A stretch of DNA of 64,000 nucleotides from Cenococcum geophilum. Its lineage: Eukaryota. Of the stretch, positions 5,044 to 53,836 are shown in pieces. The notes beneath the pieces were generated by a model. It worked only from the letters and a program-made list of their open reading frames with translations, searched no databases and had not been told where the DNA came from. Positions within the stretch are counted from its first letter, which is position 1, and every line of letters begins with the position of its first letter. The stretch lies in assembly GCA_050273025.1 (NCBI GenBank), contig CP158635.1, forward strand, positions 21,266,001 to 21,330,000, in the 5' to 3' direction. A program made the translations under genes and the position numbers.

Positions 5044-5942
5044 TTATTTTAAACCCCTATAATAATGGAACTAAGACTTTATAAGCTTTTTCTTAGAATA
5101 TTTAGGCCTTATTAGTAAACTAGATTAGAATAAAGCCGCTAGAGTTACTGCTCTTCGTTAAGCTATTTTAGATAAAATTAGAGTATAGCTAATAGGTAAA
5201 AAACTGCTAAAAGACTTACCTAAATTTGCTATAATATGTTAACAAATTAATAAGGACCTTTAATATAATAAATGAACTTATTCTCTAAAACTAGCTACAT
5301 CTTACGTTTAGAACTCTATAAAACTAATATATACCCTAAAACGCAATCTCTTTTTAAAACTAAAAAGCCCTATATATAACCTAATGGACCTTAACGTTAC
5401 TTAATCCTATATACCCCTAGGAACTAATAAATAAAAACTAAAGCCGTAAATAGAGAATGCTTTAAATATAGTAAAAAGGACTATATTTAGAGGAACTGTT
5501 AAACTTACCCCTTTAAAAAGGTTTGCCGTAGCTCCTCCTAGTCCTTAAATTACACCTATTCTATAAATTATACTTAGTTGCTATAAAGTATCTTACCTTT
5601 AGTTAACTTAGAAAATAAATAATTCTTAGGGTTAAGTCGCATCTTAGGATAGGAAGTAGAAGAGTATTAAGTATCTAGGCTCTTTTAGCGCTAACATATA
5701 ATATAACTCCCTTAAAATACTTAGTAAAATTTAAATACTTAAAAAATAGAAGAAAGTATAAATTCTAATAGATAGCGGAGCTACTAGTATAGGCTTTATT
5801 AATATAAACTACGCGAAAACTTAACGCTTAAACTTAAAAACAACTTAATAAGCCTTAAGGCCTATAAGGCTTTAATGGTAAACCCTTAATATATAGTAAA
5901 TTAACGTACTATACTCTTATAAAAATGCAGATAGGTAAATAC

Positions 5943-6541
5943 TATAAGGTAATAAGCTCCGCACCACTCAGCCACACAAACCTATAAAAGGTAAACGAGT
6001 GATTGGCTTGATGCTAGGCATGGCTATACGGAACAATATATATAGGCGAGGTGACGAATTACCTAACAATGCATCCCTTCCAATGGCGACTGTCCTTAGG
6101 CGCAACGTTCTGTCCCGTAGGCTTAGGGGCGCAGGATTAGGCCAGGCTACGGTCGCTAATGCGTTATTATGCCTTAGGGGTTGTCGCGCTTAATATACTA
6201 GACCTCTAGCAGCTATAGCGCGGCGCCTAAAGAGGCCGCCTTGCGCTTTAATTGTAGGGACTAGCGTCTTTGGTTATGGTATTAACCCAACTAAGCTAAG
6301 GCTTAGTTGCGTAACCGGCTCCTTTAGTTATATAATTAGTAGGTTATCCCTAAGTCAGCCTAGGGTATAAACGAGGTTCGAACCTATAAGGCCCTAGGTA
6401 TTAAGCCAGTCACTATATAAAGTAATAAGCTCTGCACTACTTAGCCATATAAACCTATAAAAGGTAAACGAGTGACTGGCTTAATGCTAGGCACGGTTAT
6501 ATGAAATAATATATATAGGCGAGGTGACGAATTACCTAACA
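5943..6541 (-). mobile_element. TRIM (non-autonomous miniature LTR element), 599 bp
   Basis: 126-bp direct repeats 5943-6068 and 6416-6541; TSD AATAC at 5938-5942 and 6542-6546; minus-strand PPT ttggaagggatgcat; 347-bp internal region with no recognisable retro ORF. Confidence 0.92.
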
Positions 6542-9500
6542 AATACCTTAAATACATTTCCCTATTTATAACACCCTTAAAGTAATATAAGGTAATACTT
6601 AGACATAAATAGCTAAAATAATATAACCTTTTAATTAGCCGGGTTAAAAAAATACTAAAGTTCCGTATAACCTACTACTAAAGCTATTACTTAAAACACT
6701 ACTTACCCTATAAATATATATATAACTATTTAAATTTAATATAATATAAATTGCCCTTACTATAAACCTTAAGCTAATATAATAAAGCTATAACTACTAA
6801 TTATAGCAAAGAATATAAAGATATTGCGCTAAAATCTTTTAAATTTTATGTAATATAAGCCGCACCATTTATTTTATTAGAAAAAAAATAAAACTATAAA
6901 ATCTCTGCTATAATAATAGAAGATATTAAGAAGGCGCTAGAAATAAAGCAATATATAAACCCTTAACCTCTTATATTTAAAGAGTATTATAATCTAATTA
7001 ATAAGTTTAAAAAAGAATTTATAGACTAACTACCCCTGTACTAAGATAAGTACGATTTTAAGATAGAACTAAAACCTAGTATAATTTTAAAGTTTGGTCT
7101 ATTATATGGTATATTATATATAAAAAAACCGCCTATAATATATTAATATATTAATAAACATCTAGAAAAAGAATTAATTTGCTTTAGTTAATCTCTATTT
7201 ACCTTACCTATACTATTTATTAAAAAGCCAGAAGAAGGTTTAAAATTCTATATTAGTTATTAAGCTCTAAACGTAATTATAATATAAAACTAATATCTAA
7301 TTCCTCTGATTTAAGAAACGCTTAACTGCTTAGTAAAGGTATAGTACTTTATAGGGCTTAATATAGTTACTACCTTTAACTAAATCTATATTTATAAAGG
7401 AGATAAAAAGTATATAGCCTTTTATATATAATAGGGACTCTTCAAATACTTAATAATGCCGTTTAATATAAAATATGGTCCTAGTATATTTTAGTAATAT
7501 ATTAATAATACTCTTCGCGAATTTCTCAATATATTTATTACCGCGTATATTAATAACATCCTAACCTACTTATCTTTACTTTCTAAGTATTAAAAGCATA
7601 TCTAAATAGTTTTTAAACGCCTGTAAAATATAGCCTTATAATATAATATTAAGAAATGCAAGTTCTACGCGTTTAAGGTAATATACTTAGGCTTAATTAT
7701 ATCCTATAATGGAATTAAAATAGACCTAAAGAAAGTTGCTATAATTATAAACTAGGAAAGTCCTAGTAATGTATAAGATATTTAAGGATTTCTAGAATTT
7801 GTAAATTTTTATTATTAATTTATTAATTACCTTTTAAAACTTATTTAGTTATTAGTAAACTTAATAAGGAAGAATATAAGATTTAAATAGACTATTAAAT
7901 GTAAATAAGCCTTTAATAACCTGAAGTATTATTTTATAACCGCTCTAATTCTTACCTACTTTAATTCTAACCTTAAATATATTATTAAAATAGACTCGTC
8001 TAATTATATACTAGGAGGAGTATTATCGCAATATAACAAAACGGGCGAGCTATACCTAGTAGCTTTTCTTTTCTAGAAACTTACCCCTACTATATTAAAC
8101 TATAAGATATATAATAAGGAACTGCTTGCAATTATTAGATACTTTAAATAAGGGTGTCTAAAACTAGAAGGATTGTTATTTCTAATACACATATTAACGA
8201 ACTATAAAAACCTATAGTACTTTATAACTATAAAGCAAATAATATAGTGCTAAATTTATTAGGCCAAATACCTTTTATAATTTGGCTTTAAAATTATATA
8301 CTAACCTAGCAGACTTAATTAGAAGCCTAACTTATTAATATAATAATTATAGGATTTACTTACGAACGCCTTTAACAAATGGATTATAAATTAATTATAA
8401 ATTCTACTACCCCCTAAACACTTTAAGAAACTACGCTCTATATTTCTAGATAAAGAGCTCTATAGAAATAAATTAGAAATTAATAAACTAATAGAGTACG
8501 AATATAAGAATAACTCCTAGATAGTAGATATAATTATTAGTCACATAGGGTGACTTACTAATAACGACTACTTAAGTAGGTTATAGTAATATTAGTTAAA
8601 AAGCTTGCTTCTTTATTAACGGAGGGCGAGGAGCTTAAGGCTCCTCGCTACGCTAGTACTGTGGCGATACGTAATAACCGCTTACTTTATTTCTAACACT
8701 AGCAACTTTTCTTTTATAGTTGCCATCTATATATAAATACTGCTTAACTAGCGTAACAAATATAAATCCTCCTTACTTACTATTGCTATTATAATATAAG
8801 TCTTGCTGTTTTAAATTTTGCCTCTTAGCATATAGTGCTTTCTTACTTATAAGTTATAGGTAGATATTGTGTTAGGGCGCTAAGGCGCTAGTTATAAGCG
8901 AGCTAATAGTAATTTTCTATACCGGGTATAGAAAATCCTAATTAGCTAGTTAAAATTAGGGTTTATAAAATATTATACTCTTACTCCCTTTTAACCTAAC
9001 CTTTAACCTATATATATAGAGTATTTATATTAACAAACGTTTCTAAAGCCTTGTTTAGGTTTACCTTTATTATTATATTTACTAGGTTGTCTTAGCTATT
9101 AATTTATTAAATTTTAAAGAGTTTTTGCCGTTTATAGGATTACTAAAGTACTATAATGTTAATTATAAGGCGCTTCTCCTTTATAGTACTAAGCTTAACT
9201 AAACACTTATAAAGGGAATATAAGTCGGTATATACAATTATAGAAATAACGGTGAGTTTAAGTTAATCTATAATTATCTTTAGGGTAGTTCTAATTGTAA
9301 TTACTATATTAACTCCGCTAACTATTTTATATATCTCTAACGCTAGAACACTTTAAGTAATATATTTACTCTTAGTTAAGCTCTAATAGATAAGATTGCC
9401 GTAGATTATAAAGTTATTCTCTTTAGTAGATTTGTTTATAATAATAATCTTATATCCTAACTAGGAACTAAAATCTTTATTATTTATAAACAATCTATTA

Positions 9501-10047
9501 ACAAATATAAAGAGCTTAGCGGTAGGAAGATTAATAGGTACGTAGAGTAGTCCCTAATTAAGATGGTTTATTTACTAGGAAAGGCGCTTATTTATAGCAA
9601 GAATATTATCCTTAGTTAGTTCCTAGTATTAAGCGGCAATAGAGAGATTAAATAAAGCCTTAGGTTAATAGATAAAAGTAATATAAGCTTTATAAGCGCG
9701 TTACTCTATATATTCTTACTTTAAAGAATTAACGTTAATAACGTTAATTTTCTTACCTTAACCCTTCTGGCGTAAAGTAATAAAATTCTTATTTAGGGAG
9801 AGGATATATCTATTAAAGAGTAATAGTGTTATTAAATTAAGTTTTTCCTTTAGCTTTGCTATAAGATTTATCTTTACTAGCTCGTCTTCTTTAAGAGCTA
9901 AAAATTGGTCGTCTCCTAAGATAATTATATTATTAGTTTATATGCCAATAATTCTAAATGGGGTTCCCGTGGTTATAATAAGGAAGTATAAATTAAATAT
10001 AGAAGTAGTTATTAAAAGTTTCTCTTTATAGTGCTTGCTATAGGTAG

Positions 10048-13000
10048 TATTACGGACGCTTTAAGTACGATATTATAACTACTTAGAGAAGAGTTGGAAG
10101 AAGCTAGTTGGTTAATATAGGCACGGTCTAGGATGGATCCGGTAGAACTATATAACGAGAAATAGTAACTAAGTCACGTAATGTAATCTATATAATCTAT
10201 ATAATCTATATAATCCGCAATAGAGTAGATAGAGTATACGTACCTTACGTATAAGGAGGGTTTCTTAGGAGTATGGTTGTATATTTAAAGGACCACAGTC
10301 CCTACTCTAGATAGTTCTTTCCTTACAGTAATTCTCAGAATACAATTAGAGTTAATCTATTAGGCAACCACTCTACTAGTTATTATTACGTTATTAACTT
10401 ACTTATAATACCTATATACCTAGCCTAATAATAAGCCCATTGTAGTACTTGCTATAAGGTTCCGTTATATAATTACTACCTAGTTACGGTTTTAATAAGT
10501 TAAATAATATGCCACTAAAAGCAGCCACTATAACACCATTAATGGCGGTAACTACTTTAAGGTCTAGAGGCGACACTAGTATAGCAGATACTAACTTATA
10601 ACAACCTATAACGGTTAAACAATTATAAGAGATAGTTAACTAGTTAACAGAGAATAATGCGACACTTAAATAAAGGATTAATAGGATAGGCGTAGTAAAG
10701 GTTAAGTTACTATTAATTAAAAGATTCTTAGGAGAAAGATTAAAGCTTAAAGGATTTCTTACGCAAATACACTTTAAGGTAGCGCAGGAAGGAGTAAAGC
10801 TAGTAATACCTATAGATTAAATAGCTTACGCGGGATTATTCTTGTTAGGAAGAGCACTTAAATAGTTTAAGCCTTACCTTATAGAAATATAAGCAAATGG
10901 AATAATAACCACTAATTAAGAGGTGTGGTTTATATTCTTAAGTTAGGAGGGATTTATAGAGCGACTTATACAAATATTTGGAGACCTGGAGGTAGTAACT
11001 ATAGCGGAAAGAAAACTCCAAGATATTACGTAATAAACTTTAGCAATTAAGTATATAATACAGTTCTAAACGCTAGCTATATAAGTTAAGTGGAATAATA
11101 GGGCGCTTATAGCATAGTATAAATAGGGACTTAAGGCTAAAGTCTAGGACGTAATTATTTTAATAGAAGATGCGGACACCCTAAGGGAATTAATAGATTA
11201 AGCGATAAAGATTAATAATAGGATCTTCTAAAGGGAACAGACTAAGAGAGATTAGGATAGAGTTCTATAGTCGTATAAGGCGCAAAGTACGCAACAACTA
11301 AAGCTAAATTAGAAACTATAGTATAGCGCAGAGCTAATAGACCTAAGCAGTACTAAAGAAGCCTATAAGAGATAGAGTAAGAAACTATAAAAACCTAGAG
11401 GTTAAGGATCTAGTAATTACAGAACTAAGAAGTAAAGGCTAAACTAGGGATCTTATTAGCAGAAGACGTTTAGGCGGACTCTATAGTAAAGTTAATAGTT
11501 TAAAGATGGAGCTTATATAAATTGCAGGAAATAGGGTTATTTCGCAAGGGATTATAAAGATAGTTAGAGTTACTATATAATAAAGGGAACCTAACTAGCA
11601 AAAGACACACACGTATAGAGGGACGATAGTGTACTATAAGGAATAAAAGAATGTTTAATTAGGAGTTTCGCGTTTTGTTATAATAACGCATACTAAATTT
11701 ATAAAAACGCTAAGTACGGCGCAAGCTATTAGCTATAAAAGCTAAAGTTAAGAGGACTTAGAGGAACTAAAGAGTTAGATAAAAAAATAAGATTAACTCT
11801 ATAAGCTAAATTAGGATGTTATAGTAACATACGGACAATAATTAGCGACGATAATAATGGAATTAGAGTATTTATTAATTAATAGCGATAAGGATAGTAA
11901 GGGAACTAACTAGGGGTATCTAAACCTTAATAACGCGATAGAAGTAGAGACTAAGACCGCCATAGAGTAAGGTTTAGTAACGGGCATTATAACACCGTTG
12001 GATACGGCATCCATCGCTTTATAAGATAAAAGGAGCAATATCTAAAGACGATTAAGTAAGTAGATAACTACTAGTACTAGCTTACCACTTAATAAAGGCA
12101 AAAGGCTAAAGGCTTAAGATTCTTAAGACGAGATAAGAGAGATCTAAGACTCCAAAGATAGGATAAGGACAGCTTAAGGACCTATAACGGACAAAAACCG
12201 ATGGAGTAGAGCAGCGGCTTAATTTAAAGATATATAAATAAGCGAGGGATAAGAGTTCCTAACGGCATAAGATTCTTAAGACAAGATAAGTAAGATTTAA
12301 GACTCTTAAGACGAGATAAGAACACTATAGACGCCTAGTTAGACTAAGGCGAGAGCTAAACTTAAGTTAAAAGCAAGCTTAGGATTAAGAATCTTATAGG
12401 ACTAAGATTTTAATAAATAAATAAGGACTATTAACAAAATTAGAGAATCCGTAATATAAATAGCAGTTAAACTAGGAGACAGATATATAGATCTAGAAGA
12501 CTTACTAGGGAAATATAGTGTTTAGCCTAAAGATTAAAAAGTTAATACTAAGATTAAGAAGTAAGAGAACTTTAAGGATCCACTTATAAGACGCGATAGA
12601 AAAGAAACCATAGAGGAATTTAGAGTAAGGATTACCTTATAGCAAGAATAGAAACTAGATAAGAGATCTAGTATATTAGGACGTATAAGGGACAGAGTAC
12701 CTATATAAAAAGTCACTAATAGGCTTAGAGTAGGTATACTAAGAGCCAAGTAGCTTACCAAACTGGAATAAGAAGAGGATCTAGGGATTTTAATTAGGTT
12801 TAAAGAATAATATATAAAGGGCTGTTATAACGCAGTAATAAGAAGATACTTCCTTACAAATAAGCCGTATATACTTAAAGGGTTATACTAAAAGTGGTAT
12901 AAACAACGATATAATAATAAGTAGGAAGATTTTTATATATAGTTAGATAAGAAAGTTATCTAAAACCACCTAATTATAAAAAAGGCTATAACACATATTA

Positions 13001-16000
13001 AAGGGGCCTTAATTATAACGTTAAAAGATTTAAAGGAGCAATTAGAGGACTGGAGAAGTGAAAGACGAATCTTAATACCTGCGAATAAAGTTATAACGCT
13101 TAGATTAATATAAGAGAAGTTTAAACTTAAGGATAAAGACAAGCTAAGAGTTAACCCAAGACACTAAGCATATTATATACTATTATAGATAGTATATATA
13201 GATAATACGTGCAATATATATAGAGCACCTAAGGACAAAAATTAGAAGTATTTAATAAGAATATATTGGATAACGGATGAGGCGAAATATTAAAATGCTA
13301 AGTATATACATAGTTGGCACCTAGTAGAAGTTTAAAAATAAGAGGACTTAATACTTTAACCAGGAAAATTCCTTACAGAAAAATGCCTAAATGGATAATA
13401 ATAGTAGGAATATCTAGAAAATACCTGTCTATGGTATATTAAAGATAAAAAGCGAACTAAGTATTGGCCTAAGTTGGACTAAGTATAACTAGGATTAAGC
13501 AGCTAATAGTTGGGAAAAGTAGAGGCTTATAAAACTAAAGGGAACTAGTAGTAGAGCCTTAGACCCTTAAAGGAATTTAAGGATAACACCTAAATTTATA
13601 AGTTAAGTGGCAAGATTAACAGTTTAAGGCATTAATAGATAGTGGAGCAATAAGGAACCATATTTTACTAGCAGCAGTTAAAAAAAATAGGGTTACTACA
13701 CAGAAAAAAGGAGTACTTTTACCTATTAGTAATAATTTTAGGAGATCTAATAGCCTATAAAGGAGGTATTGTTAATCTTAAAACAGGACCTATTTAGTTA
13801 ACTATTAAAGGGAGATAGATTAAGATGTCTTTTAATATATTACTATTAGGAAATAATAAAGCAGTATTAGGAATACCTTAGTTACAGAAATACAATCTAA
13901 AAATCGATTAGGTTATAGGTTAGGTCGATATTAAGGATACTTAACGCCGTAAGATGTAATAACAGGCCAAGTTAGTATAGTACTAAGTAGGAGCAACCTA
14001 TAAGGAAATAGAGAAGGGGTTAAGCTATATACCAAAGAGATACCATAAGTATAGTAAGAAACTATAGTCACTAAAGAGTAAAAAGCTGTTAGAGTACGTA
14101 GTATAGGATTATAAAATAGAATTAGAACTAGGAACAAGTCTAAGGTTCTTTTTAATCTATAAGCTTACTAAAGAGGAAGGTAGAGCACTTAAAGAGTTTA
14201 TTTAGGAGAACTTATAAAAGGGATATATTAGACCATCGCAGTTATTAGTAGGTTATTTAGTACTGTTCGTCCTAAAGAAAAATAGCAAGCTAAGGCTGTG
14301 TATTAACTATAGATAGTTAAACAGCATCACTAGGAAGGATAGGTATCCTTTACCCTTAATTAGCGAAATTTAAGATAGGATTGGTAATATGTAAATCTTT
14401 ACAAAGATAGATCTAAGATAGGCGTACCATTAGATTAAAATTAAGGAAGGCGATGAATAAAAGGCAGCCTTTAGGTTAAAGGAAGGACTATATAAACCAT
14501 TAGTTATACAATTCGGGCTTATAAACGCACTAGCAACGTTTTAAAAGCGAATTAATAATATATTAGGAGAATACTTAGATGAATTTGTTATAGTATATCT
14601 TAATAATATTATTATCTATTTAATAATAGAGGAAGAATATAGAGAATACGTTGAATGGGTTTTAAAGAGACTATAAGAGGAATAGATGCTAGTAGTAATT
14701 AAGAAATACGAGTTCTTTACTAGGAAGACTAATTTTATTAGATTTATTATTAAACTAGGCCAACTTAGTATAGAGCTAAAGAAGATTAAGGCTATAGTGA
14801 ATTAGTAGGAACTAGAGAACGTTATATAGTTAAGATTGTTCCTAGGGTTTTATAATTACTGCAGAAGGTTTATAGCGTAATGGTTAAAAGATATTAAACC
14901 ATTTACGCGGTTAATAAAGAAAGAAGAACTATAGGTATAGGGAAAGGAGCAATAAGAACTGTTTAAGAAAGTTAAAGAGTTATTTACCTAGGAGCTAGTT
15001 TTTAAGATCTATTAACTAGGTCTAGAGATGGTTATAAAAATAGATATATTAGACTTTACATTAGGAGTATGCTTTATATAAAAGTATCTAAATAGATGGC
15101 ACCTAGTAGCATACTATAGTTAAAAGATAACACCACTAGAGTTAAACTATAACATCTATAACAAAGAGTTATTAGGTATAGTTACAGCACTAAAGGAATA
15201 GAAAGCATTCTTATAAGGCACAGAAAAACTATTTATAGTTAAGATGGATTATAAGAACCTAATAGGATTCCTAATAAAGGAACTTAACTAAAGATAAGTT
15301 AAATAGGCAGAGATGCTTATAGAATACTATTTTAAGATTTAGCATATTAAGGGTATAGACAATACGCGGGCCGACGTACTAAGTTAAAAAGCTAAACTAT
15401 AAAATAATAAGAAGCTATTAGGGGCTTTACTACAAAAAGATATAGATAGGTTAATTAGGTATAATTATCCAAAAATTATAATAACTTAGAAAAAATTAAA
15501 GAAAGTTTATAAGTTACTAGAAAGCTTTTAGGTATAAAGAATTCTAAAAGCACAGCTAGAAGATCTATAGACGGATATATACAAAAACTAAGAAGTAAAG
15601 TATATCCTAAGAAGCATAGTAGAGCACTTTATAGAAGATTTCTATAAGGGATTAACTTAAGGACATAATAGGGCTATAGGCTTAGTGTTAAGACTCTAAA
15701 AGGAGTATATCATTAACGGAATCTAGAGGATAGCTAGGAAGGTCACTAAAGAGTATTTAAATTGCTAAAGAAATAAACTAACGAGGCATAAGCTATATAG
15801 AGGGCTATAACCTATTAAAATACCAAAGAGACTATAGGAGGTTATATTATAGGACTTTATTATAAAGTTACTAAAATTAAGAGATCCTATTACCAAATAA
15901 GATCATAACGCGATCTTAGTAATAGTGGATAAGCTTATAAAGTAGGGATACTTTATAGCATATACAGAAGAGATATTAGCAAAAGATGTCGCTAGAATCT

Positions 16001-18046
16001 ATATTAAAAAAGTATTTATAAGACATAGAGTACTAAGTAAGATTATATTAGATAGAGATCTAAGATTTATAGCAGTATTTTAGGAGGTATTCTTAGCGGA
16101 GTAAAAAGTTCGAGCAGTAACTTCTACCGTATATTATCCGCAGACAGACGGCTAAATAAAAAGATTAAATTAGACACTAGAGCAGTATCTAAGGCACTAT
16201 ATTAATCACGTATAGAATAATTAGGTATTATTATTACTAGTTATATAGTTTATATATAATACAACACCACAAAAAGGAATAGGTACGTTACTATTTAAGG
16301 CGAATTATAGATATAAGCTAAGAACATTATTATCGCCACGTTAAGTAAAGAAGATAAGTAGTATAGCTAAGCAAAGGATAGAGACACTAATAAATCTTTA
16401 TAAAAACCTTACGGAAACAGCTAAGGTAGTATAATAGAGAATAAAGAAATACTACGACGCTAAAAGATCTAAGGGACTAGATCTTAAGGAGGGAGATAAA
16501 GTATAGCTACTATATAAAAATTTTAAGAGTCGACGACTAAGTAAGAAGTTGGACTATATTAGACTAGGACCTTTCGAAATTATATAAAGAATTTCACCAG
16601 TTACATTTAAGTTAAACCTACTAGCTAAGATAAAAATCTACCCTATACAGCATATTATAATACTAGAGCTAGTATATAGGAATATTAAGCTACTAGTCTA
16701 CAAAGTAGACACGTATAGAGGACGAGAAGAAGACGAATAATAAGTTTTAAAGATTATTAGTTATAAGAACGTTAACAATAAAATATAGTATAAGGTTAAG
16801 TAGATAGGCTATAATAAGACTACCTAGGAACTACTAAAAAATTTAAAGAACGCTATAAGAAAGGTACAGGAGTATTAAAAGAGATTAGGTTAGGCAACAT
16901 TAATAAAAAAGGATTAAAAAAGGAGTTACTTAAGGGGGACCTAGGAGGAACAGCTACTGAACTATTTAGACTTGTTTTCTTTATAAGGGAGTCCGTTCTT
17001 TTATTACTAAGTTCCTACAGACCTTATTCTATAAGCTTCTACTCTTTAAAATAACCCTTTTTATAAACCTATTTAAGACGTAAAAGATAAGCAGAGGCTA
17101 GAAAACAAGTTTTAAGAGTATACTGTTAAGCGGCCGCAGCCTCTTATTCCGCCTCTCGCGATTAACGCAGTTTATTAAGGGCACTTAAGAGCTTACTATT
17201 AAGCTTTACAGCAGTAAATTAAACACGAGACCCTATAATAAATTACTTAGAAAACTTAAAGACTATTAAGAGTTATAGGACGTGTATACTTAGCGTTAGA
17301 AATAAAGCGAACATCGTAGAACAAATAAATATTTACTTTAGTGCACTCTAAATAAGAGGAAGGTTGCCGAGATAAAGGACTTACTAGCGTAACGCAAACT
17401 AACCCCTCTTTCGCACAACGAGAACACGGAGATAGTATTACTTTACCTAGCGATAGTATAACGGTGATAGTACGAGCGCGACAGGCTATAGAAGAAAGAG
17501 AAGTTACTTTTGGTATAATAAGTAATAATGTTAACTAAATTAATTAGACGGATATTATACCTCTAGTAAATAACTTAGAGATATTTAGAATCTTTAAGGA
17601 CAAAGATAAAGAGGAGGGAGATAGTGTTATAGACGCTTTAAGTACAATATTATAACTACTTAGAGAAGAGTTAAAAGAAGCTAGTTAGTTAATATAGGCA
17701 CGGTCTAGAATAGATCTGGTAGAACTATATAACGAGGAATAGTAACCAAGTCACGTAATATAATCTATATAATCTATATAATCTATATAATCCGTAATAG
17801 AGTAGATAAAGTATACGTACCTTACGTATAAGGAGGGTTTCCTAGGAGTATAGTTATATATTTAAAGGACCACAGTCCCTACTCTAGATAGTTCTTTCCT
17901 TATAGTGATTCTTAGAATACAATTAGAGTTAATCTATTAGGCAACTACTCCACCAGTTATTATTACGTTGTTAACTTACTTGCAATACCTACACACCTAG
18001 CCCAATAATGAGCCCATCGTAGTACTTGCTACAAGGTTCCGTTATA
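10048..18046 (+). mobile_element. Ty3/Gypsy chromovirus C, full length (~8.0 kb), same family as G0, D and F
   Basis: LTRs 10048-10469 and 17625-18046; TSD GGTAG at 10043-10047 and 18047-18051; PPT aaagaggagggagatag. gag from ~10509, protease ALIDSGA ~13630, RT ~14100-14900, RNase H, integrase, chromodomain ~16735-16880. Confidence 0.93.
16890..17516 (-). pseudogene. Antisense accessory gene of Gypsy C: Zn2Cys6-like cluster, 55-bp intron (17287-17233), coiled coil
   Basis: Directly readable SPCSRCAKEGLVC..SP.SRQPSS(C>Y).ECTK.N....(C>Y)DVR..S.A; branch ctaa and acceptor tag; exon 2 WSRV..AAAKLDSELSSALDELRQSREAEQEAAAA after de-RIP. Confidence 0.75.
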
Positions 18047-21000
18047 GGTAGCCCACTAATAAGTTCCTACTTCTGCAATTTTATATAATAGCTTAAGCAT
18101 AACTATAATCGTATCTTTAGGATATTGATAGCAAATTTACTCTAGAAGGTATGCCAATATTAAGCGCTAAAGGTGCGTCTCTAATTAGATATAGGCCTAG
18201 GTAATATCTTATAAATAAACCGCCATTTTATTCTTTATTAAGGAGGGAGCTAGCGTAATAATAACTTACTAACTAGCTTATTAAATTATAGGAGATTATA
18301 TAAGAATTACCTCCTTACTATTATTATTATAACCTTAGATAATAAGCCTTAATTTCTTAAATAGGGCGTTAGTAGCTTTACCTTTAATCTTATTAACTAT
18401 TCTTAACTTAAAGATACAAACTTTATTAAACTTAGTAGGGTTATATTTCTTAAATTTAAAGACTCCTCTTATAATAAGACTATCAATCTCCTACTTATTA
18501 GATGCTTAGAAAGGAGCTCTAGGGGTTATAATATAACCTTCCTTTTAGAGCTATTTTGCGAGCTTAAAGTTAGCCTTCTCCTTAGCTGTTATAAAGGCCA
18601 TTAATAACTCGACTTTATTCTTAATAGCGGTAATAAATTACGCTTTAAAATTAACAAGGTATTAACGATTTTATAATCCCTTTAGGCGACCTCTACTGCG
18701 TTATAGTTGCGGCATATCTACTATAATTATATTAGGATTGTAGTTACCTTCTAGAGTATATTAATCGTGGTTCTCCTTTAAGGTATCTTTTAGGGCATCC
18801 TATAAAGGCTTAGAACTATTATCTTTATAGTAAGGCTTAATAATAGTTAAACGGAATTAAGTAGGTCCGTAAGGCATCTAAATAGTATAAGTTTAACTAT
18901 TAATTATAATAAGTTGGTGTGGGCCTAACTACCCTCCCTTTTTACGCTATATATATACCTTAGACTAAAGTAGCAGATTAAGCGTAGTTAAGGTATTTAG
19001 GCTATTTCTTATTTCTAGTATATTATTAACCTAGCGTATAGCATAGAGACGTTATACCTCCTTTATTACCTTATAAATAGCCTTAGCTTATTATATAACG
19101 GAGGGAGATAGTAAAGAATTGTTAGTTACTTAAGGGTAGGCGCTAAAGACTAGTAATATAGGTATAAGCCTATCCGGGCTAGCGGAGTTATTAACAGCCT
19201 TAACGGCTATTTATCAGATAAGCTCTTTATTAGCGCCCTCTAGTTCTAAAGAAATAATCTTATATACGCGGCGTAACGGCGTATAATATCGCTCTACTTT
19301 TTTAATACTATTATATGCCTTAATAGGGACTTCCTTAACCTTAATTGCTATTACCTTTATCTATTATTAAAACTTTATAGATAAGAAGTTTTTTTCTACG
19401 TTATAGACGATTTAATTAGGGGGTCCTATATAAATATTAATCTAGTATAATTAAAGGGTATCCTATATATTGTTAGCTAATATATCCTTTAAGAAACGTA
19501 CGGCTTAAAAGGAGGTTAAGAAGTTAATAACTTAGAGTACTAGCTTGCCGCTAAAATATATAACGTTAATAATAATACAGAAGTTAAAGTTATAGTTATC
19601 TTTAAGGGTAAACTTAAATCGGCTAGGGGACTTTTAGTTTATTTAATAGTAATAGCAGTACTTTATAAAATACTTAATTGCCTTAACCTTAACTTTATAA
19701 CCTACTTATTAAAGAACCCTAAGCAATTAATAAATAGATAGGTGGCTAAATTAACGGTATAGTTAACGTAACTTTAACTTAGTTAGGTGGCTCTAAGTAA
19801 TACTTTTTTTTAGTTAATAAAGGAGTAACTAAGGGTAGCCCTACTTGCGTATAATAGGTACCCAATTATCTCCCTATATAAGCATATTCTTAAGGTTATC
19901 GAGCTTAACGCCTAATTTATTTATATCTCTAATATAAAATAGAAATAGAGTATTTATAGAAATAACGTGGAAAGTAATATACCCTAAGGGGGTTTAGACC
20001 CTAATTATACTAAGAGAGATTATAGTACTCTTGCTAAAACGTATTATATATTAGCCTACCGTTAATTGTTAATCTAGATAGAGGTATTAAGTTATTAAAG
20101 GGCTCGAACTTAAGGTTCTCCTACTATAAATACTCCTATAGCTCTAGTATCTGGTATAATACTATAGAAGATATTCGCAGAGTATCTATTATTAAAGAAA
20201 AACGCGGAGCTTTTCTTTAGCTTATTAAAGATATTTAACTTCGTAATAGAATATAGCGTAGATTAGTTATTAAGAATAGTAATAGTTTGTATACTATCTA
20301 CCTTACTATACTTAGTAAAGTATTGGTTAGGTAAGTAGTCCTTAATTTCTATATCTATAAGGAGCTATTTAGCCTTATTAACCTTACCCTTAAGATCTTT
20401 TATGCCTTTATATTAAACTAAGAAGCTTTAGAAGTAGGCTATAGTAACCTTATAATTTTTAACATTTCTTACACTCTAGCGAAACTTATTATATACCTCC
20501 TTTTGCTTATTAAGAGAATGCCTAGTTAACTAGTAATTCGGTTTCTTATAAACGTAGCACTTTTTTTAGCAATTACTTTAAAATAAACCTCTATAAGGAC
20601 CTCTACCTTTACCTTATAGTTATTAATTATACCCTCTACTATATTACCTACCACGGCTACTATATATTTAATTAGTCTAGTTATAATTATATTAGTTGGC
20701 TAGGTTAATTAAAGTAGGTTAAAGTTAGGCATTAAATTGCTATACTTCTTAAGAGCGTAAAGCGGTGCTAATAGAAGATCTTAATTAAGTATATACTCCT
20801 TTATAAGTATTTACAAGATTAAAGAGAGTAAGGTTATATTCTTTAACGCCTTAGTATACGCTAATAACTTAATTACGTAGGCTAAAATCCTCTTAATATA
20901 ATTTAGATAAACCATACTAAATTATTTAAAGTTAATTAAAGAGCTTTTAAAGATAATTAAGCCGAGGGACACCTAGGTTTATAGCAATAATCCTTAAAAA

Positions 21001-42200: not shown

Positions 42201-45200
42201 TAGTACCTTATTAAATGGCTAGGATAGTTAAATAAGTATAATAAATGGAAATACGAGATAGAACTTAAGAATTGTTAATAACTGCTAGATAAGTACCGTA
42301 AGTGGGACACCCTAGCCTTATAGCCGAAGCGTAGGCGAAAAGTAAGCGCCGCTATTAAAATATAACCTGCATTAAAGCGGAGTAGAGGACGTCCTAAGGG
42401 ATTAAAGAATAAGCGATTGCTGTAAGAACTATAGCTTTAATTTAAAAAGCACCCTTTCTAGACCTAGTCCGTTACTCTATACTAGCTAAGTAAATTGTTT
42501 ATATATTAGAGAATAGGCCCGTTTATAACTAGGGTTTATTTAACCAAGGTTTATAACCTGCTAGTAATCTACCGGTAGTAACCTATACTAATAACTTATA
42601 TACTATTCTACGTATATACTACGCAAATAACGTATAAGGCTAAAATATAGGTTAGCGGCGGGTCTAATAGGTATATAGCCTTACCGTCCTAATCTAGCTG
42701 TATATAAATAACCTATAACCTACCCACGAAGTATATACGGCGTTATACCGGCATAGTGTAAGGCTAAAGTAGGGTTAGCGGCGGATTTAATAGGTATATA
42801 GCCTTACTGTTTACGAATCTGGCTATATATAAATAACCTATAACCTACCCGCGAGGTACTAGCGACCTGCCTATATAAGCGAGCTTTAGAATATTTCTAG
42901 TCTACTAAATTTAAGCGACGGTATTAAGCTCTACTAGCTCTACCTATTAAATAGACTAATTAGGATTTTCTATACCGGGTATATAAAATCGCTATTAGCT
43001 CGGTTAAATGCGGGGGAGTCTTAGTAAGGCAAATCTGACTAATTAGATAACTTTAACCGCCGGTCAAAGTTCCTTAACATCTTCACGCCGCGTATGTATA
43101 CCCGTCTCTCTATATATAAAATTAAAACACTCTTTCCCCTTTAAATTTTTTCCTTACTAAGGTTTTTTAGGGGTTTTATTAAGGCTTAAGTATATAAAGG
43201 ATTGGGGACGACCCTTTTTAAAGGGGGTGTTACGGACGCTTTAAGTACGATGTTATGACTACTAGGAAGGGAGTCGGAAGAAGCTAGTTGGTTAATATTA
43301 GCACGGTCTAGTATAGAGCCAGTGGAACCATATAATAAGGAATGGTAAGCGAGTTATATAATGTGCTACGTAAGGAATAAGAGGAACGGAGGGAACTTAT
43401 ATACCTTACGTATAATGCGTACCTTATATATAAGGAGGGTTTCCTAGAAGTACGGTTATGTATTTAAAGGACTACAATCCCTACTCTAGATAGTTCTTTC
43501 CTTATAGTAATTCTTAGAATACAATTAAAGTTAATCTGTTAGGTAACCACTCCACTAGTTATTATTACGTTGTTAACTTACTTGCAATACCTACACACCT
43601 AGCCTAATAATAAGCCCATCGTAGTACTTGCTATAAAGTTCCGTTACATAATTACTACCTAGTTACGGTTTTAATAAGTTAAATAATATACCACCAAAAG
43701 TAGCCACTATAACGCCATCGACGGCGGCAACTACTTTAAGGTCTGGAGACGACACTAATATAGTAGATACTAACTTATAACAACCTGTGACGGTCGGATA
43801 ACTATAAGAGATAGTTGACCAGTTAATAGAAAATAATATAATACTTAAATAAAGGATTAACGGGATAGGCGTAGTAAAGGTTAAGTTACTATTAATTAAA
43901 AGATTCTTAGGAGAAAGATTAAAGCTTAAAGGATTTCTTATATAAATACACTTTAAGGTAGCGCAGGAAGGAGTAAAGCTGGTAACGCCTATAGATCGAA
44001 TAGCTTACGCGGGATTATTCTTATTAGGAAGAGCACTTAAATAATTTAAGCCTTACCTTATAGAAATATAGGTAAATAGAATAACAACCACTAATTAAGA
44101 GGTGCGGTTTATATTTTTAAGTTAGGAAGGATTTGTAGAGCGACTTATATAGATATTTAGAGACCCAGAGGCAGTAACTATAGCGGAAAGAAAACTTTAA
44201 GACATTATGTAATAAACCTTAGCAATTAAGTATATAACGCAGTTCTAAACGCTAGCTATATAAGTTAAGTGAAATAATAGGGCGCTTATGGCACAGTATA
44301 AATAGGGACTTAAGGCTAAAGTCTAGGACGTAATTATTCTAATAGAAGATGCGGACACCCTAAGGGAATTAATAGATTAAGTAATAAAGATTAACAACAG
44401 GATCTTCTAAAGGGAATAGACTAAGAGAGGTTAGGATAGAGTTTTATAGTTATATAAGGCGTAGAGTACGTAACGACTAAAGCTAAGTTAGAAATTATAG
44501 TATAGCGCAGAGCTAATGGACCTAAGCGGTACTAAAGAAGCCTATAAGAGATAGAGTAAAAAACTATAAAAACCTAGAGGTTAAGGATCTAGTAATTATA
44601 GGACTAAGGAGTAAAGGCTAAACTAGGGATTTTATTAGTAGAAGACGTTTAGGCAAACTCTATAGTAAAGTTAATAGTTTAAAGACGGAGCTTATATAAA
44701 TTGCGGGAAATAGGGTTATTTTATAAGGGATTATAAAGATAGTTAGAGTTATTATATAATAAAGGGAACCTAACTAGTAGAAGACATATATATATAGAGG
44801 GATAATAGTGTACTGCGAGGAACGAAAGAATATTTAATTAGAAGTTTCGCGTTTTGTTATAATAACGTATACTAAATTTATAAAGACGCTAAGTATGGCG
44901 TAAGCTATTAGCTATAAGAGCTAGAGTTAAGAGGACTTAAAGGAACTAAAGAGTTAGATAAAGAATAAGATTAACTCTATAAGTTAAATTAGGATATTAT
45001 AGCAACATACGGATAATAATCAGCAATAATAATAATAGAATTAGAGTATTTATTAATTAATAGCGATGAGGATAGTAAAGGAACTAACTAGGGGTATCCA
45101 AACCTTAATAACGCAATAGAAGTAGAGACTAAGACCGCTATAGAGCAAGGTTTAATAACGGGTATTATAACACCGTTAGATATAGCATCTATCGCTTTAT

Positions 45201-46310
45201 AAGACGGCAGGAGCAGTATCTAAAAGAGATTAAGTAAGCAGATAACTGCTAGTGCTAGCTTACCACTTAATAAAGATAAAAGGCTAAAGGCTTAAGATTC
45301 TTAAGACGAAATAAGAGAGATCTAAGATTCTAAAGATAGGATGAGGATAGCTTAAGGGCCTATAACGAATAAAAACCGATAGAGTAGAGCAGTAGCTTAG
45401 TTTAAAGATATACAAATAAGCTTAGGATAGAGTTTCCCACAGGCATTAGATTCTTAAGATGAGATAGATAAGATTTAAGACTCTTAAGACGAGATAAGAA
45501 CACTACGGATACCTAGTTAAACTAAGGCGGGAGCTAAGCTTAAGTTAGAAGCAAGCTTAGGATTAAAGAATCTAAGGGACTAAGAATTTAGAGTATAAAT
45601 AAGGACACCTATAGGCAAGAGGCAAGGAGCTTCCTTATAGATTAGAGAATCTATAATATAAATAGCAGTTAGACTAGGAGATAGATATATAGACCTAAAA
45701 GACTTACTAGGGGAATACAGTATTCAGCCTAAAGATTAAAAAGTCGATACCAAGATTAAGAAGTACGACGACTTTAAGGATCCACTTATAAGATATAAAA
45801 GAAAAGAAACTATAGAGGAATTTAGAGCGAGAATTACCTTATAGTAAGAATAGAAACTAGATAAGAGATTTAGTATATTAGGATGTATAAGGGATAGAGC
45901 ACTTATATAAAAGGTCACTAATAGGCCTAAAGTAGGCACACTAAGGGCTAAGTGGCTTACTAAATTAGAATAAGAAGAGGATCTAGGGATTTTAACTAGG
46001 TTCGAAGAACAATATATAAAGGGCTATTATAACGCAGTAATAAGAAGATACTTCCTTACGGACGAGCCGTATACACTTAAAGGGTTATACTAAAAGTGGT
46101 ATAGACAACGATATAATAATAAGTGGGAAGATTTCTATATATAGTTAGATAAGAAAGTTATCCAGGACCACCCGATTATAGAAAAGGCTATAACTTATAT
46201 TAAAGGAGCCTTAATTATAACGTTAAAGGATCTAAAGGAGTAATTAGAGGCATCGGGAAAATATTCGCAGGATGAGATTTAAGTAGACTTTGGTTTTCGC
46301 GTTTCGCGTA

Positions 46311-46705
46311 ATTGACATGCAATTTGACCAACTCGACACGCAATTAACTAACTTGACACGCAATTGACTAACTTGACATGCAATTTAACCAACTCAACAC
46401 GCAGTTGACCTACTTGATATATAATTTAACTAACTTAACACGCAGTTGACCTACTTGACATGTAATTTAACTAACTTAACACGCAGTTGACCTACTTAAC
46501 ATGTAATTTAACTAACTTAATACGCAGTTGACCTACTTAATATATAATTTAACTAACTTAATACGCAGTTGACCTACTTAACATGCAATTTAACTAACTT
46601 AATACGCAATTGACCTACTTAATATGCAATTTAACTAACTTAACACGCAATTGACCTACTTGACATATAATTTAACTAACTTAACATATAGTTAACCTAC
46701 TTAAC
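46311..46705. repeat. 20/21-bp subterminal tandem array with 41-bp higher-order period
   Basis: Alternating gcagttgacctacttgacat / gcaatttaactaacttaacac units. Confidence 0.9.
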
Positions 46706-46836
46706 AACTTTAAAAGCTAACTGTATATTTCTTAACGTGCGATTAAGGTAAAGTTATATGCTATATATTTAACTATTATATATAATCCTATACAATCTTA
46801 TACAATCTCATACAATCTTATAGTCTTATTACTTGG

Positions 46837-47232
46837 AGGCTCTGCACGAGGCTCTATACGAAGCTCTGCGTACAGAGGCTCTGCACGAAGCTCTGCGCAT
46901 AGAGGCTCTGCACAAAGCTCTGCACGAAGCTTCGCATAAGGCTCTTCACGAGGCTCTACACGAAGCTCTGCGTACAGAGGCTCTGCACGAAGCTCTGCAC
47001 GAAGCTCTGCACGAAGCTCTGCACGAAGCTCTGCACGAAGCTCTGCACGAAGCTCTGCACGAAGCTCTGCACGAAGCTCTGCACGAAGCTCTGCACGAAG
47101 CTCTGCACGAAGCTCTGCACGAAGCTCTGCACGAAGCTCTGCACGAGGCTCTGCGCGAAGCTCTGCGTACAGAGGCTCTGCACGAGGCTCTGCGCGAAGC
47201 TCTGCGTACAGAGGCTCTACACGAAGCTCTGC
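46837..47232. repeat. 12-bp minisatellite (gctctgcacgaa)n
   Basis: Long perfect run at ~46980-47145 with variant units on both flanks; source of the EALH-repeat ORF. Confidence 0.95.
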
Positions 47233-47365
47233 ATCGGGTCCCCGCTATATTCCCGATAGCCTCTACACGTGCCTCTACCCTATGTAACCACCTTATTTTT
47301 TACCCTTCCTTCCTTCTTTATATCCTCCCTACCTAGGGAGGCACCAGAACGGCAGCCAGCAGAGG

Positions 47366-47606
47366 ACCGTTGCTAGAACTAGACGACCGTCGCCAGAACC
47401 AGATGACCGTTACCAGAACCAGACGACCATCGCCAGCCAGACGACCGTCGCCAGAACCAGACGACCGTCGCCAGCCAGACGACCGTTACCAGAACCAGAC
47501 GACCGTTGCCAGAGCCAGACGACCGTCGCCAGAACCAGACGACCGTTGCCAGCGCCAGACGACCGTCGCCAGAACCAGACGACCGTCGCCGTCGCCAGAC
47601 GACAAC
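47366..47606. repeat. 21-bp minisatellite (gccagaaccagacgaccgtc-like), followed by a GTAG/GCAG microsatellite at 47655-47920
   Basis: Direct reading; RIP-mutated counterpart at 4190-4470. Confidence 0.9.
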
Positions 47607-50600: not shown

Positions 50601-50670
50601 ACTACAAAAAGATACAAATGGGTTAATTAGGTATAATTATTCAAAAATTACAGTAACTTAGAAAGAATTA

Positions 50671-51819
50671 TATAAGATTCAATTTACCGTCCAACCTAGT
50701 CCCCCTAATGGGTCCACACAGACTAATTCCTATGGGAAAAACCTCCTTACTAAGAAAAACCCCATTTTTAAGTGTACAAAAAACCCCTAGGGGAGACGTA
50801 AGAGGTAATATTCCAGATAATATCCATACTATATTAACGGGAGGAAAAACACTGTTAGGTTGCTACTTTAAGACTCCCTTTACATAGGAGTGTCTAAATA
50901 CCTATCTTGCCCTATCTGCTATTTAAACTATCTTTGCTACATTTATATATTGCTTGTCTAAGTCGTGTGCCTATCCCTAGCTCCTTTTCTAAGTCTTCTG
51001 TAAATATCTCCTAATAGATAACACTTGCGTTCCGCCTGAGCCTATATGCTAAGGTTTCTTATCTACTCCTTTATTAAAGGGTTTCTATAACGGGGTGTAT
51101 ATAACTTAGTATTGCTTTTGCCCTAGGGCCCAAACCTAGGCCCTTATACCTATTTGTAAGGTATAGGAGGACAATCTAGTATTTAATAGGGGGCCTAATC
51201 CCTATAATTAGATACCTAGGTTACCGGATAATGTTAAAATAGGGGGCCTCTGCTACGCTTAGGGCGCGGATTGCTTATATATGTGTGTAAATACTATATA
51301 GTGTGTGTAGTATTTATAGGAGGGAGGGGGTACGCCGAAGGGATAATACTTGTCGATTTAATGTCCAAATATGTACATTAGAGACGTAGTAGCGGTGTTT
51401 AAACTTTTTTGCTAAGGCTCACCCCTTAGTAAAAAATCTTTGCACCACCATGACGTCGCTGCGTAGGCGCTGCGCAGCCGTATACACGTCTCTGCGTTTG
51501 CTCTGGTAGTCTATTAACACAATCTAAATGGAACATTAATAGTAGCTGCTAGGTTCCCGGGCTCCACCGCATAGGGGTGCAGAAGTCGCTTTTCTGGAGT
51601 CGTCTTTTTGACTGGTCTGGCGCCAAGGCCTGTGAAAACTCTGCTGTTCTAACGGCGTCAAGGGTTAAGTATTTAAAGGCCCCCTCTAGCCACAACGTAA
51701 CGCTGCTGCATTAGTAACAGACGAGATCCTCTCTCTTAGCTTAACTATGCGGACAAGATGAGACGGAAAGGAACCCCCATAGGACCGTATGGGTCGGATC
51801 TCGATTTTAGTATTCCCCT
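50671..51819. mobile_element. Unclassified 1149-bp insertion with 14-bp target duplication
   Basis: cttagaaagaatta at 50657-50670 and 51820-51833; single copy at the empty site in C (~15485). No TIR, LTR or poly(A) seen; several hairpins. Confidence 0.8.
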
Positions 51820-53224: not shown

Positions 53225-53836
53225 TTAGGTAATATTAATAAAGAAGGATCGTTAAAGAATAAGTTACCTAAGGGGGACCTAGGAAGAACGACTGCCGAAC
53301 TACTTAGAGTTGTTCCCTTTATAGGAAGAGAGTTAGTTCTCTTATTACTAAGTTCCTGCAGACCTTGTTCTATAAGTTTCCACTCCTTAAAATAAACCTT
53401 CTTACGAACTTTCTTAAGATAAAGGAGATAAGCAGACGCAGAGATATGGGCCTCTAAAGCCTTCTGCTCCGCATTCTAAGAACGTTCTAACTTAGTAAGG
53501 GTATAAGTCAGCTTACTATCTAGATAAGCAGCAGCGGATTAAATATAAAACCCTATAATAAATTACTTAGGGAACTTAAAGACTATTAAGAGTTATAGGA
53601 CGCGTATACTTAGTATTAGTAGAAGAGCGAACGTTATAGGACAAATAAATATTCGCTTTAGTGTACTTTAAGCAAGAGGAAGGTTGCTGAGATAAAGGAC
53701 TCGCTAACGCGACGTAGACTAACCCCTCTTTTATATAACGAGAATACGGAGACAGTATTATTTCACCTAGCGACAGTATAGCAGTAATAGTACGTGCACA
53801 ATGTTGCGCGTGTGAAGAAGAAGAAGCTTTAGGTAT
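53225..53836 (-). pseudogene. Antisense accessory gene of Gypsy F (Zn2Cys6-like + intron + coiled coil)
   Basis: De-RIP MPKASSSSHAQHCART..LSLGEIM.SPCSRC.KEGLVCVALASP.SQQPSSC.ECTKAN. Donor atacgc (RIP of GTACGC) at the same position as in copy C. Confidence 0.75.

What the first reader, a model, noticed from the sequence alone, without database searches (positions are those of the whole stretch)
5943..6541. Fungal TRIM with a perfect 15-bp Tf1-type self-priming duplex
Seen: the sequence next to the 5' LTR (attaagccagtcact, 6400-6414) is the exact reverse complement of agtgactggcttaat inside that LTR (6471-6485), ~25-30 nt downstream of a minus-strand TATA run (~6509-6517). Known: Tf1/sushi elements prime reverse transcription by folding the mRNA 5' end onto the PBS rather than using tRNA, whereas described TRIMs mostly use tRNA PBSs. 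Inference: a tRNA-independent 0.6-kb parasite; the small size may also reduce RIP (it is visibly GC-richer than its host).
Basis: partly seen in the sequence, partly recalled or inferred. Interest (0 to 1): 0.72.

Follow-up and report, generated by a model that had tools for sequence, protein, structure and literature searches.

The report
Self-priming fungal mini-retrotransposon with tRNA-like relic
A 599-base, gene-less jumping element of a fungus most likely starts copying itself with the first 15 letters of its own RNA instead of a borrowed tRNA, and it also carries tRNA-gene-like promoter boxes on either side of its repeat boundary; it is a new variant of known transposon biology.

Summary
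Confirmed: a minus-strand TRIM (126-bp LTRs, 5-bp TSD) inserted in a RIP-wrecked Ty3/Gypsy pol, with a 15/15 LTR:PBS duplex (0 of 20,000 shuffles). At least 24 two-LTR copies lie in the genome. Self-priming is supported by two-sided changes between lineages (positions 1, 4-5, 14), a distant 448-bp family with another 14-nt duplex at the same place, no matching host tRNA among those found, and chromoviruses here with 10-nt LTR:PBS duplexes. No start site or cleavage was shown. The copy is heavily RIP-mutated; its perfect duplex is partly a RIP coincidence, so 'escapes RIP' is unsupported. One family member is held whole in RNA-type assemblies. Best reading: Pol II, Tf1-type priming, chromovirus helper; bold reading: a Pol III-transcribed self-priming TRIM. 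Not found in print in eight searches; this scan noted the 448-bp family and similar elements on other DNA before.

The parts
5938..5942 (.). target-site duplication (AATAC), left
   Evidence: matches 6542-6546
5943..6068 (-). 3' LTR, 126 bp (terminal CA mutated to TA by RIP)
5998..6012 (-). copy of the primer segment in the 3' LTR, 13 of 15 complementary to the PBS in this copy
6069..6081 (-). polypurine tract plus short spacer before the 3' LTR
   Evidence: 1 of 21 columns with a shared transversion in 26 copies
6082..6341 (-). variable non-coding internal region; subfamilies differ by blocks
   Evidence: 130 of 228 columns with shared transversions or deletions; no ORF of 120 aa
6342..6360 (-). 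conserved leader hairpin shared by families A and B (candidate packaging signal; function inferred)
   Evidence: 56 of 60 cells Watson-Crick in 12 little-mutated copies; invariant, so no covariation
6362..6456 (-). tRNA-like module spanning U5, LTR end, PBS and leader (called by ARAGORN in less mutated copies, not in this one)
6375..6384 (-). box-B-like motif (a second, here broken, copy at 6363-6373)
6400..6414 (-). primer-binding site, one base behind the 5' LTR, complementary to 6471-6485
6416..6541 (-). 5' LTR, 126 bp
6437..6447 (-). box-A-like motif in U5 (RIP-mutated in this copy)
6459..6462 (-). T4 run, 24-27 nt behind the predicted RNA start; kept in 26 of 26 family-A copies, T5 in the 448-bp family
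6471..6485 (-). predicted self-primer and RNA 5' end (start of R; inferred, not mapped)
6508..6517 (-). TATA-like box, 32 nt before the primer (31 in the 448-bp family)
6522..6537 (-). U3 hairpin at the LTR start
6542..6546 (.). target-site duplication (AATAC), right
5401..5942 (+). host element, upstream part: RIP-broken pol with an aspartic-protease-like DSG motif read by eye (no Pfam hit)
6547..8800 (+). host element, downstream part: RIP-broken Ty3/Gypsy pol (RVT_1, RT_RNaseH), 58 stops in 751 codons

Best explanation
A multicopy, recently mobile, non-coding LTR retroelement (TRIM). It is transcribed from the TATA box in U3, most likely by Pol II, starting about 32 nt downstream at the first base of the 15-nt segment (inferred). 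That 5' end folds onto the PBS one base behind the LTR; neighbouring U5 bases pair with the LTR end and with the first leader bases, as in the three-duplex 'pretzel' of Tf1 (inferred from base-pairing). The RNase H of a co-packaged chromovirus reverse transcriptase cuts off the primer, and the helper's RT and integrase copy and insert the element with a 5-bp TSD (inferred by analogy; helper not identified). The U5-PBS-leader region descends from, or mimics, a tRNA-Leu-like gene; its boxes are conserved but it does not encode a working tRNA, and its role is open.
For: 24 two-LTR copies aligned from 30 loci (6 left out: 2 duplicates, 4 partial or interrupted); 18 of 24 with an exact 5-bp TSD, 3 with one transition. 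Duplex: 331 Watson-Crick, 14 G-U, 15 mismatched of 360 cells, departures being transitions. Two-sided changes not explained by RIP: position 1 A-U to G-C (L008, L018, L082), positions 4-5 AA:UU to UU:AA in family B (L040, L041, L044, L046, L088), plus position 14 in L088. The 442-448-bp family, alignable in its 5' region (score 81.5, best of 2000 shuffles 67.5), has a different 14-nt duplex at the same place, 31 nt behind its TATA (7 of 7 rows). Pairing stops at the same outer base in all. Primer:PBS pair probability 0.96. No host tRNA gene end fits (0 hits; at most 5 nt in 11 tRNAs), whereas two Copia-type elements here carry the iMet anticodon-loop PBS. Chromoviruses of this genome show 10-nt LTR:PBS duplexes (4 of 8 fetched pol loci, one more at 8 nt with a shifted boundary, 3 unresolved); L105 has a 1404-aa open pol with RT, RNase H, integrase and chromodomain. 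L013 has identical LTRs and its LTR+internal unit is a closed 481-nt contig without differences or flanks in 2 of 4 runs laid.
Against: No RNA 5' end, cleavage product or cDNA end was seen: the one raw-read run gave 26 partial reads from relatives and no pile-up of ends. Only 7 of 24 copies keep a perfect duplex (RIP after insertion). The host tRNA set is incomplete (63 of 10,237 candidates scored, 11 found). No coding element shares the LTR/PBS junction (26 hits, all at TRIM copies) or the leader hairpin. The covarying lineages are few (about four independent events). The duplex (15 nt) is longer than Tf1's 11 nt and the helpers' 10 nt. Conserved boxes A and B and the T-run are not explained by a Pol II model.
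Confidence: 0.8

Rival explanations
1. Self-priming as above, but the genomic RNA is made by Pol III: TFIIIC binds box A (U5) and box B (leader, so only the 5' LTR is a full promoter), the TATA box places the start at the primer, the T4-5 run is partly read through in the 5' LTR and ends the RNA in the 3' LTR, giving an R of about 27 nt (a Cassandra-like design).
For: ARAGORN calls the module in 4 of 24 copies against 0 of 2000 shuffles and in the 448-bp family at a relaxed threshold (2 of 2; shuffles 2 of 2000; 0 of 8 control leaders). Best host matches are class II tRNA genes, two of them Leu. A RIP-tolerant box-B core survives in 25 of 26 copies, through the second copy where the first is broken (L009, L090, L091); boxes are kept while the T-stem is weak (25 Watson-Crick, 32 G-U of 60), as expected for a DNA-level promoter. 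T-run in 26 of 26.
Against: Both box-B copies are broken in L087 (intact TSD) and L014. Box A lies 38 nt behind the primer start, further than in ordinary tRNA genes (own knowledge). A terminator 24 nt after the start would have to leak. The closed contigs need at least 30 nt of overlap, more than 27 (read-through could supply it). Rfam: 18.9 bits against a cut-off of 47. Family B's box B deviates, and its ARAGORN call appears only at a threshold that 6-11% of shuffles pass. No Pol III data exist here.
Confidence: 0.25
2. The PBS is read by a host tRNA (3' end at the TGG 7 nt behind the LTR, or an anticodon-loop half as in fungal Copia and Helenus), and the LTR complement is structural or incidental.
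For: A TGG lies within the PBS; the host tRNA set seen is incomplete; 5-bp TSDs fit Copia as well as chromoviruses.
Against: No tRNA gene end fits families A or B; best complement to 11 tRNAs is 5 nt, tRNA-Asp and iMet included; the LTR segment changes together with the PBS in every lineage, which a tRNA primer would not require.
Confidence: 0.06
3. The tRNA likeness is a by-product of the pretzel stems and chance, without tRNA ancestry or function.
For: The 5' strand of the 'acceptor' stem and part of the D arm are the same bases that form the U5 duplexes; the minimum-energy fold from the tRNA-like start is not a cloverleaf; four-base 'anticodon' in family A.
Against: Box B and its spacing are not part of the pretzel, yet are kept in two families with unrelated primers, with the LTR end in the anticodon loop in both; shuffles and self-priming controls do not score.
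Confidence: 0.2

Closest known systems
Tf1/sushi group of self-priming Ty3/Gypsy chromoviruses (Tf1, Tf2, Tj1, Tosmo1-3, Tcry1; proposed for Maggy, Skippy, Cft-1, Boty, Grasshopper, Afut1)
   Same: RNA 5' end complementary to the PBS next to the LTR; start behind a TATA box; flanking U5 duplexes ('pretzel') possible. Seen in passages of PMC7175516, PMC4600332, 10.1101/2022.12.06.519325, PMC6317226, PMC6934838.
   Different: No coding capacity, 126-bp LTRs, 15-nt rather than 11-nt duplex, tRNA-like boxes around the PBS; phylogenetic membership cannot be tested without a pol gene.
[quoted passage not shown]
   Same: Under 1 kb, two short LTRs, PBS and PPT, non-coding, TSD, solo LTRs (passages of PMC6934838, PMC3532108, PMC13570524).
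   Different: Described TRIMs in the passages seen use tRNA-derived PBSs or have none identified; here the PBS pairs with the element's own LTR.
Helenus (tRNA-bearing TRIMs; TRIMp3 proposal), Kojima 2024, PMC10886601
   Same: TRIM with box A and box B of a tRNA gene, no working tRNA, 5-bp TSD in fungi.
   Different: Helenus carries the whole tRNA-like sequence inside each LTR, uses tRNA or half-tRNA primers (Copia helpers in fungi), is listed only from basidiomycetes among fungi, and the author found no self-complementarity with the tRNA-like part; here the boxes straddle the LTR end and bracket a self-priming PBS in a RIP-active fungus.
Cassandra (5S-bearing, Pol III-transcribed TRIM)
   Same: Short RNA-gene promoter in a TRIM, short R, tandem arrays (seen here in the 448-bp family).
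   Different: 5S rather than tRNA boxes, wholly within the LTR, tRNA-Met PBS (PMC7215508 passages); Pol III transcription is not shown here.

Membership tests
TRIM | two terminal direct repeats of 100-250 bp, total under 1 kb | tested here: met
   126-bp LTRs, 599 bp; copies 525-603 bp
TRIM | non-coding internal domain with PBS and PPT | tested here: met
TRIM | TSD and dispersed copies | tested here: met
   18 of 24 exact 5-bp TSDs, copies on all 7 contigs
TRIM | PBS complementary to a tRNA (classical definition) | tested here: not met
   tRNA set incomplete
Tf1/sushi self-priming elements | PBS complementary to an LTR segment behind the TATA box | tested here: met
   with two-sided changes
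Tf1/sushi self-priming elements | that segment is the RNA 5' end and is cut off by RNase H | not testable with these tools
   one search gave no RNA ends
Tf1/sushi self-priming elements | three-duplex pretzel | tested here: inconclusive
   short U5:LTR-end (41 WC + 3 GU of 48; 22 of 24) and U5:leader (41 + 1 of 48) stems in 12 little-mutated copies; nearly invariant, one two-sided change seen by eye in family B
Tf1/sushi self-priming elements | chromovirus RT/integrase phylogeny | tested here: not met
   no coding sequence; works like Tf1 but cannot be a member by this feature; no coding parent found
Helenus | tRNA-derived sequence with boxes A and B inside the LTR | tested here: not met
   box A in LTR, box B 30 nt into the internal region; the fungal Helenus LTRs seen in the supplement hold both boxes
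Helenus | tRNA or half-tRNA primer | tested here: not met
TRIMp3 (proposed group) | small-RNA-gene-derived Pol III promoter motifs | tested here: inconclusive
   for; (L087) against
TRIMp3 (proposed group) | transcription by Pol III | not testable with these tools
   no polymerase-specific data

The most novel reading that the evidence does not exclude
A lineage of fungal TRIMs built on a captured tRNA(Leu)-like gene whose anticodon loop became the LTR end: box A (in the LTR) and box B (behind the PBS) form a Pol III promoter present only at the 5' LTR, the TATA box sets the start at the self-primer, and the T-run defines a short R. It would be a Pol III-transcribed, tRNA-independent LTR parasite that needs neither a Pol II promoter, nor a host tRNA, nor a reading frame, and so can stay expressed and mobile in RIP-ravaged heterochromatin.
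Probability: 0.25. Interest if true: 0.78.

Novelty: new variant of a known kind. Interest (0 to 1): 0.5.

Why it matters
Self-priming has been shown only for Tf1 and inferred for its coding relatives; a small non-coding family with natural two-sided changes in a 14-15-nt duplex is good comparative support that the signal is portable and lets a parasite use any helper regardless of tRNA preference. TRIM finders that look for tRNA PBSs would miss or mislabel such elements, and tRNA finders call their 5' ends as tRNA genes. If the split boxes are a working Pol III promoter, this joins two designs known separately (Tf1 priming, Cassandra/Helenus promoters) and gives a simple test of how non-coding elements persist under RIP.

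Tried and rejected
Coding parent with the same LTR: patterns for the LTR/PBS junction, PBS+box B, leader hairpin and post-PBS+box B (84 hits, control 4) returned only TRIM copies, one LTR-less fragment (L095) and chance hits; the long copies L031 and L032 are TRIMs with insertions. tRNA priming: rejected. RIP escape by small size: not supported; the one nested test (L031: TRIM parts substrate index 1.11, younger Copia internal 0.54, but Copia LTRs 1.20) is inconclusive. Start-site mapping: run X24 gave 26 partial reads of relatives, no ends. The 'empty site' contig in X11 (depth 2.4, 12 other letters in 125) may be another copy of the host repeat, so it is not counted as a polymorphism. Rfam gave nothing above a cut-off. 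The multicopy tRNA-like hits proved to be a separate SINE, not the source of the module. Pol III targeting of insertions: no tRNA gene in the flanks scanned. 7 of 15 metagenome pattern hits are unrelated GC-rich DNA. The acceptor and anticodon rows were mis-indexed and are replaced. A pattern search for host tRNA genes was no better than its control. Literature searches found no self-priming TRIM; subscription journals and Repbase were not searched.

Full report
Observation. The element lies on the minus strand at 5943-6541: LTRs of 126 bp (113 identical, 13 transitions), TSD AATAC, one spacer base, then 15 bases (6414-6400) that are the exact complement of 6485-6471 in the 5' LTR. None of 20,000 LTR shuffles gives a 15-nt complement to the first 25 leader bases. 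The TATA-like box starts 32 nt before the paired segment. The insertion interrupts a RIP-broken Ty3/Gypsy pol near its protease.

Family. A search of the window's genome (178 Mb, 7 contigs; 40 of 257 candidates scored) gave 50 matches. Of the 30 loci returned I aligned 24 two-LTR copies; 2 were duplicates and 4 partial or interrupted. 18 of 24 have exact 5-bp TSDs, 3 differ by one transition; five solo LTRs checked have 5-bp flanks matching at 4-5 bases. LTR pairs range from identical (L013) to about 80%. Subfamilies differ by blocks in the internal region: in 26 copies (22 genomic, L014 and L020 dropped as interrupted or truncated, plus 4 metagenomic) 9 of 176 columns from the TATA box to the leader hairpin carry shared transversions or deletions, against 130 of 228 in the rest (related copies and long deletions inflate the second count). 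A metagenome scan gave 15 hits, 8 of them relatives.

Duplex. Over 24 copies 331 of 360 cells are Watson-Crick, 14 G-U, 15 mismatched; 7 copies are perfect. In the window copy both arms carry the same CpA/TpG transition relative to L013, a RIP coincidence and not selection. Changes that RIP cannot make are two-sided: pair 1 is G-C in L008, L018 and L082; pairs 4-5 are reversed (UU:AA) in a sister family B (L040, L041, L044, L046, L088; one B copy, in L006, is decayed with a mismatch); pair 14 is U-A in L088. A 442-448-bp family noted earlier by this scan on other DNA, which I fetched and checked, aligns with family A in its 5' region (81.5 against a best of 67.5 in 2000 shuffles) and has a wholly different 14-nt duplex 31 nt behind its TATA box (7 of 7 rows). 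These are about four independent events, not a formal test. Folding from the primer start gives pair probabilities of 0.96 and 0.97. Short U5:LTR-end and U5:leader stems flank the duplex, the layout described as the Tf1 'pretzel' (10.1101/2022.12.06.519325, passages).

tRNA priming. No tRNA gene end complementary to the TGG register exists for families A or B. The longest complement to 11 host tRNA genes is 5 nt; the set is partial. [quoted passage not shown]

Helpers. No coding element shares the junction or the hairpin. Of 8 well-preserved pol loci fetched, 4 show 10-nt LTR:PBS duplexes two bases behind the LTR, 1 shows 8 nt with a shifted boundary and 3 were not resolved; one has a 1404-aa frame with RT, RNase H, integrase and chromodomain. 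Chromovirus help in trans is therefore plausible but unproven.

tRNA-like module. ARAGORN calls a 94-95-nt tRNA-like gene across U5, LTR end, PBS and leader in 4 of 24 copies (not the window copy) and in 0 of 2000 shuffles of each of two copies; the 448-bp family is called only at a relaxed threshold (2 of 2; shuffles 2 of 2000; control leaders 0 of 8); family B only at a threshold that 6-11% of shuffles pass. In families A and D the LTR's last bases fall in the anticodon loop and the PBS begins in the 3' strand of that stem, so cloverleaf and primer duplex exclude each other. The best host matches are class II tRNA genes (Leu-CAG, Leu-TAG, one unassigned; 0 of 300 shuffles; length favours them). 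The motifs match those given for Helenus boxes (PMC10886601). A box-B core tolerant of RIP survives in 25 of 26 copies, by way of a second copy where the first is broken; both are broken in L087 and L014. The T4 run after the primer is kept in 26 of 26. Against a functional tRNA: a four-base anticodon, weak T-stem, a non-cloverleaf minimum-energy fold and 18.9 bits in Rfam against a cut-off of 47. I read it as tRNA-gene ancestry with retained boxes (about 70%), and a working Pol III promoter as possible (about 25%). Earlier notes on other DNA judged such a promoter weak or unsupported; those on other genomes I could not check.

Expression and age. L013 is held at 0.98-1.00 of its words in 20 of 24 listed runs, 6 on record as RNA. 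I laid 4: in X1 (RNA by guess) and X9 (metatranscriptome) the LTR+internal unit forms one closed 481-nt contig with no differences and no flank depth, as an LTR-to-LTR RNA with 30 nt or more of overlap, a circle, or a many-copy DNA would give; contigs show no start, strand or level. X24 raw reads gave no ends.

RIP. The window copy differs from L013 by 85 C>T-type changes (38 CpA, 30 CpG) and 17 others, partly subfamily differences; GC runs from 0.407 to 0.576 across copies. The family does not escape RIP; being non-coding and younger than its hosts suffices to explain the GC contrast.

Comparison and novelty. It is a TRIM that works like Tf1 but is not a Tf1/sushi member by coding criteria and not Helenus, whose boxes lie inside the LTR and whose primers are tRNAs (PMC10886601: parts 1-4 and 6 of 6 read, supplement seen as search passages only). 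Other papers were seen as passages: PMC4600332, PMC6317226, PMC7175516 (11-base primer, RNase H cut), PMC6934838, PMC4646964, PMC11042837, PMC3532108, PMC7215508, PMC13570524, 10.1101/2022.12.06.519325 (supplement closed). The original Levin and Butler papers were seen only as citations. Eight searches found no self-priming TRIM or split-box TRIM; Repbase and subscription journals were not covered. Statements on RIP chemistry and on ordinary Pol III spacing rest on my own knowledge.

Verdict. Real, well supported as a self-priming TRIM (0.8), a new variant of a known kind; interest 0.5, rising to about 0.78 if the split boxes prove to drive Pol III transcription.

Noticed in passing
L092 (metagenome contig), 5' LTR: The stretch from base 12 of the primer to the far end of the PBS is cleanly inverted (best fit at cut 11, 7 mismatches against 46-68 for other cuts). 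The ends coincide with the Tf1-type 11/12 cut and the duplex base; one contig, could be a misassembly.
   Followed up: partly
L119 (G000:C3:18114600-18116000): In the 448-bp family, an inverted copy without 5' LTR is joined into another copy within the primer sequence, resembling insertion by PBS homology described for Tf1 (PMC11042837, passages); L121 and L122 are tandem copies sharing an LTR.
   Followed up: partly
L014:1344-1572: A solo LTR of the 448-bp family sits in a family-A LTR with its 5-bp duplication across the predicted RNA start (LTR positions 55-59). One case only.
   Followed up: partly
L113-L116, L118: A tRNA-headed SINE of about 600 bp ending in (TATC)n with target duplications; 7 hits.
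   Followed up: partly
L041, L054, L055, L057 (about 1380-2010): Family-B LTRs occur as head-to-head palindromes joined at the U3 hairpin, at several loci; heavily RIP-mutated. Origin unexplained.
   Followed up: no
L044-L051, L043: A near-identical decayed family-B copy with a Gypsy solo LTR inside recurs at 8-9 loci, so it was carried by a larger repeat.
   Followed up: no
L006:1501-2103: A family-A TRIM inserted 2 bases into the 3' LTR of a family-B TRIM.
   Followed up: yes
L031:1091-6875; L109:6098-8513: Copia-type elements with the iMet anticodon-loop PBS; the first is inserted in a family-A TRIM.
   Followed up: partly
L032:763-3213: A 2.4-kb poly(A)-tailed insertion in reverse orientation inside a TRIM copy.
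   Followed up: no
G000:C7:400000-820000 (L105-L110): A cluster of nearly unmutated Ty3/Gypsy elements (4 best RT_RNaseH hits without stops of 150 scored) and a family-A solo LTR, suggesting a region little touched by RIP.
   Followed up: partly
L009 flanks: The flanks share 10 bases rather than 5.
   Followed up: no
runs X9 and X11: Deep contigs (depth 83 and 171) hold the U5 end of a related LTR followed by an inverted copy of the LTR end.
   Followed up: no
window 10039-18047 and 43219-54367: Two related RIP-degraded LTR elements with about 425-bp LTRs, the second with nested insertions.
   Followed up: no
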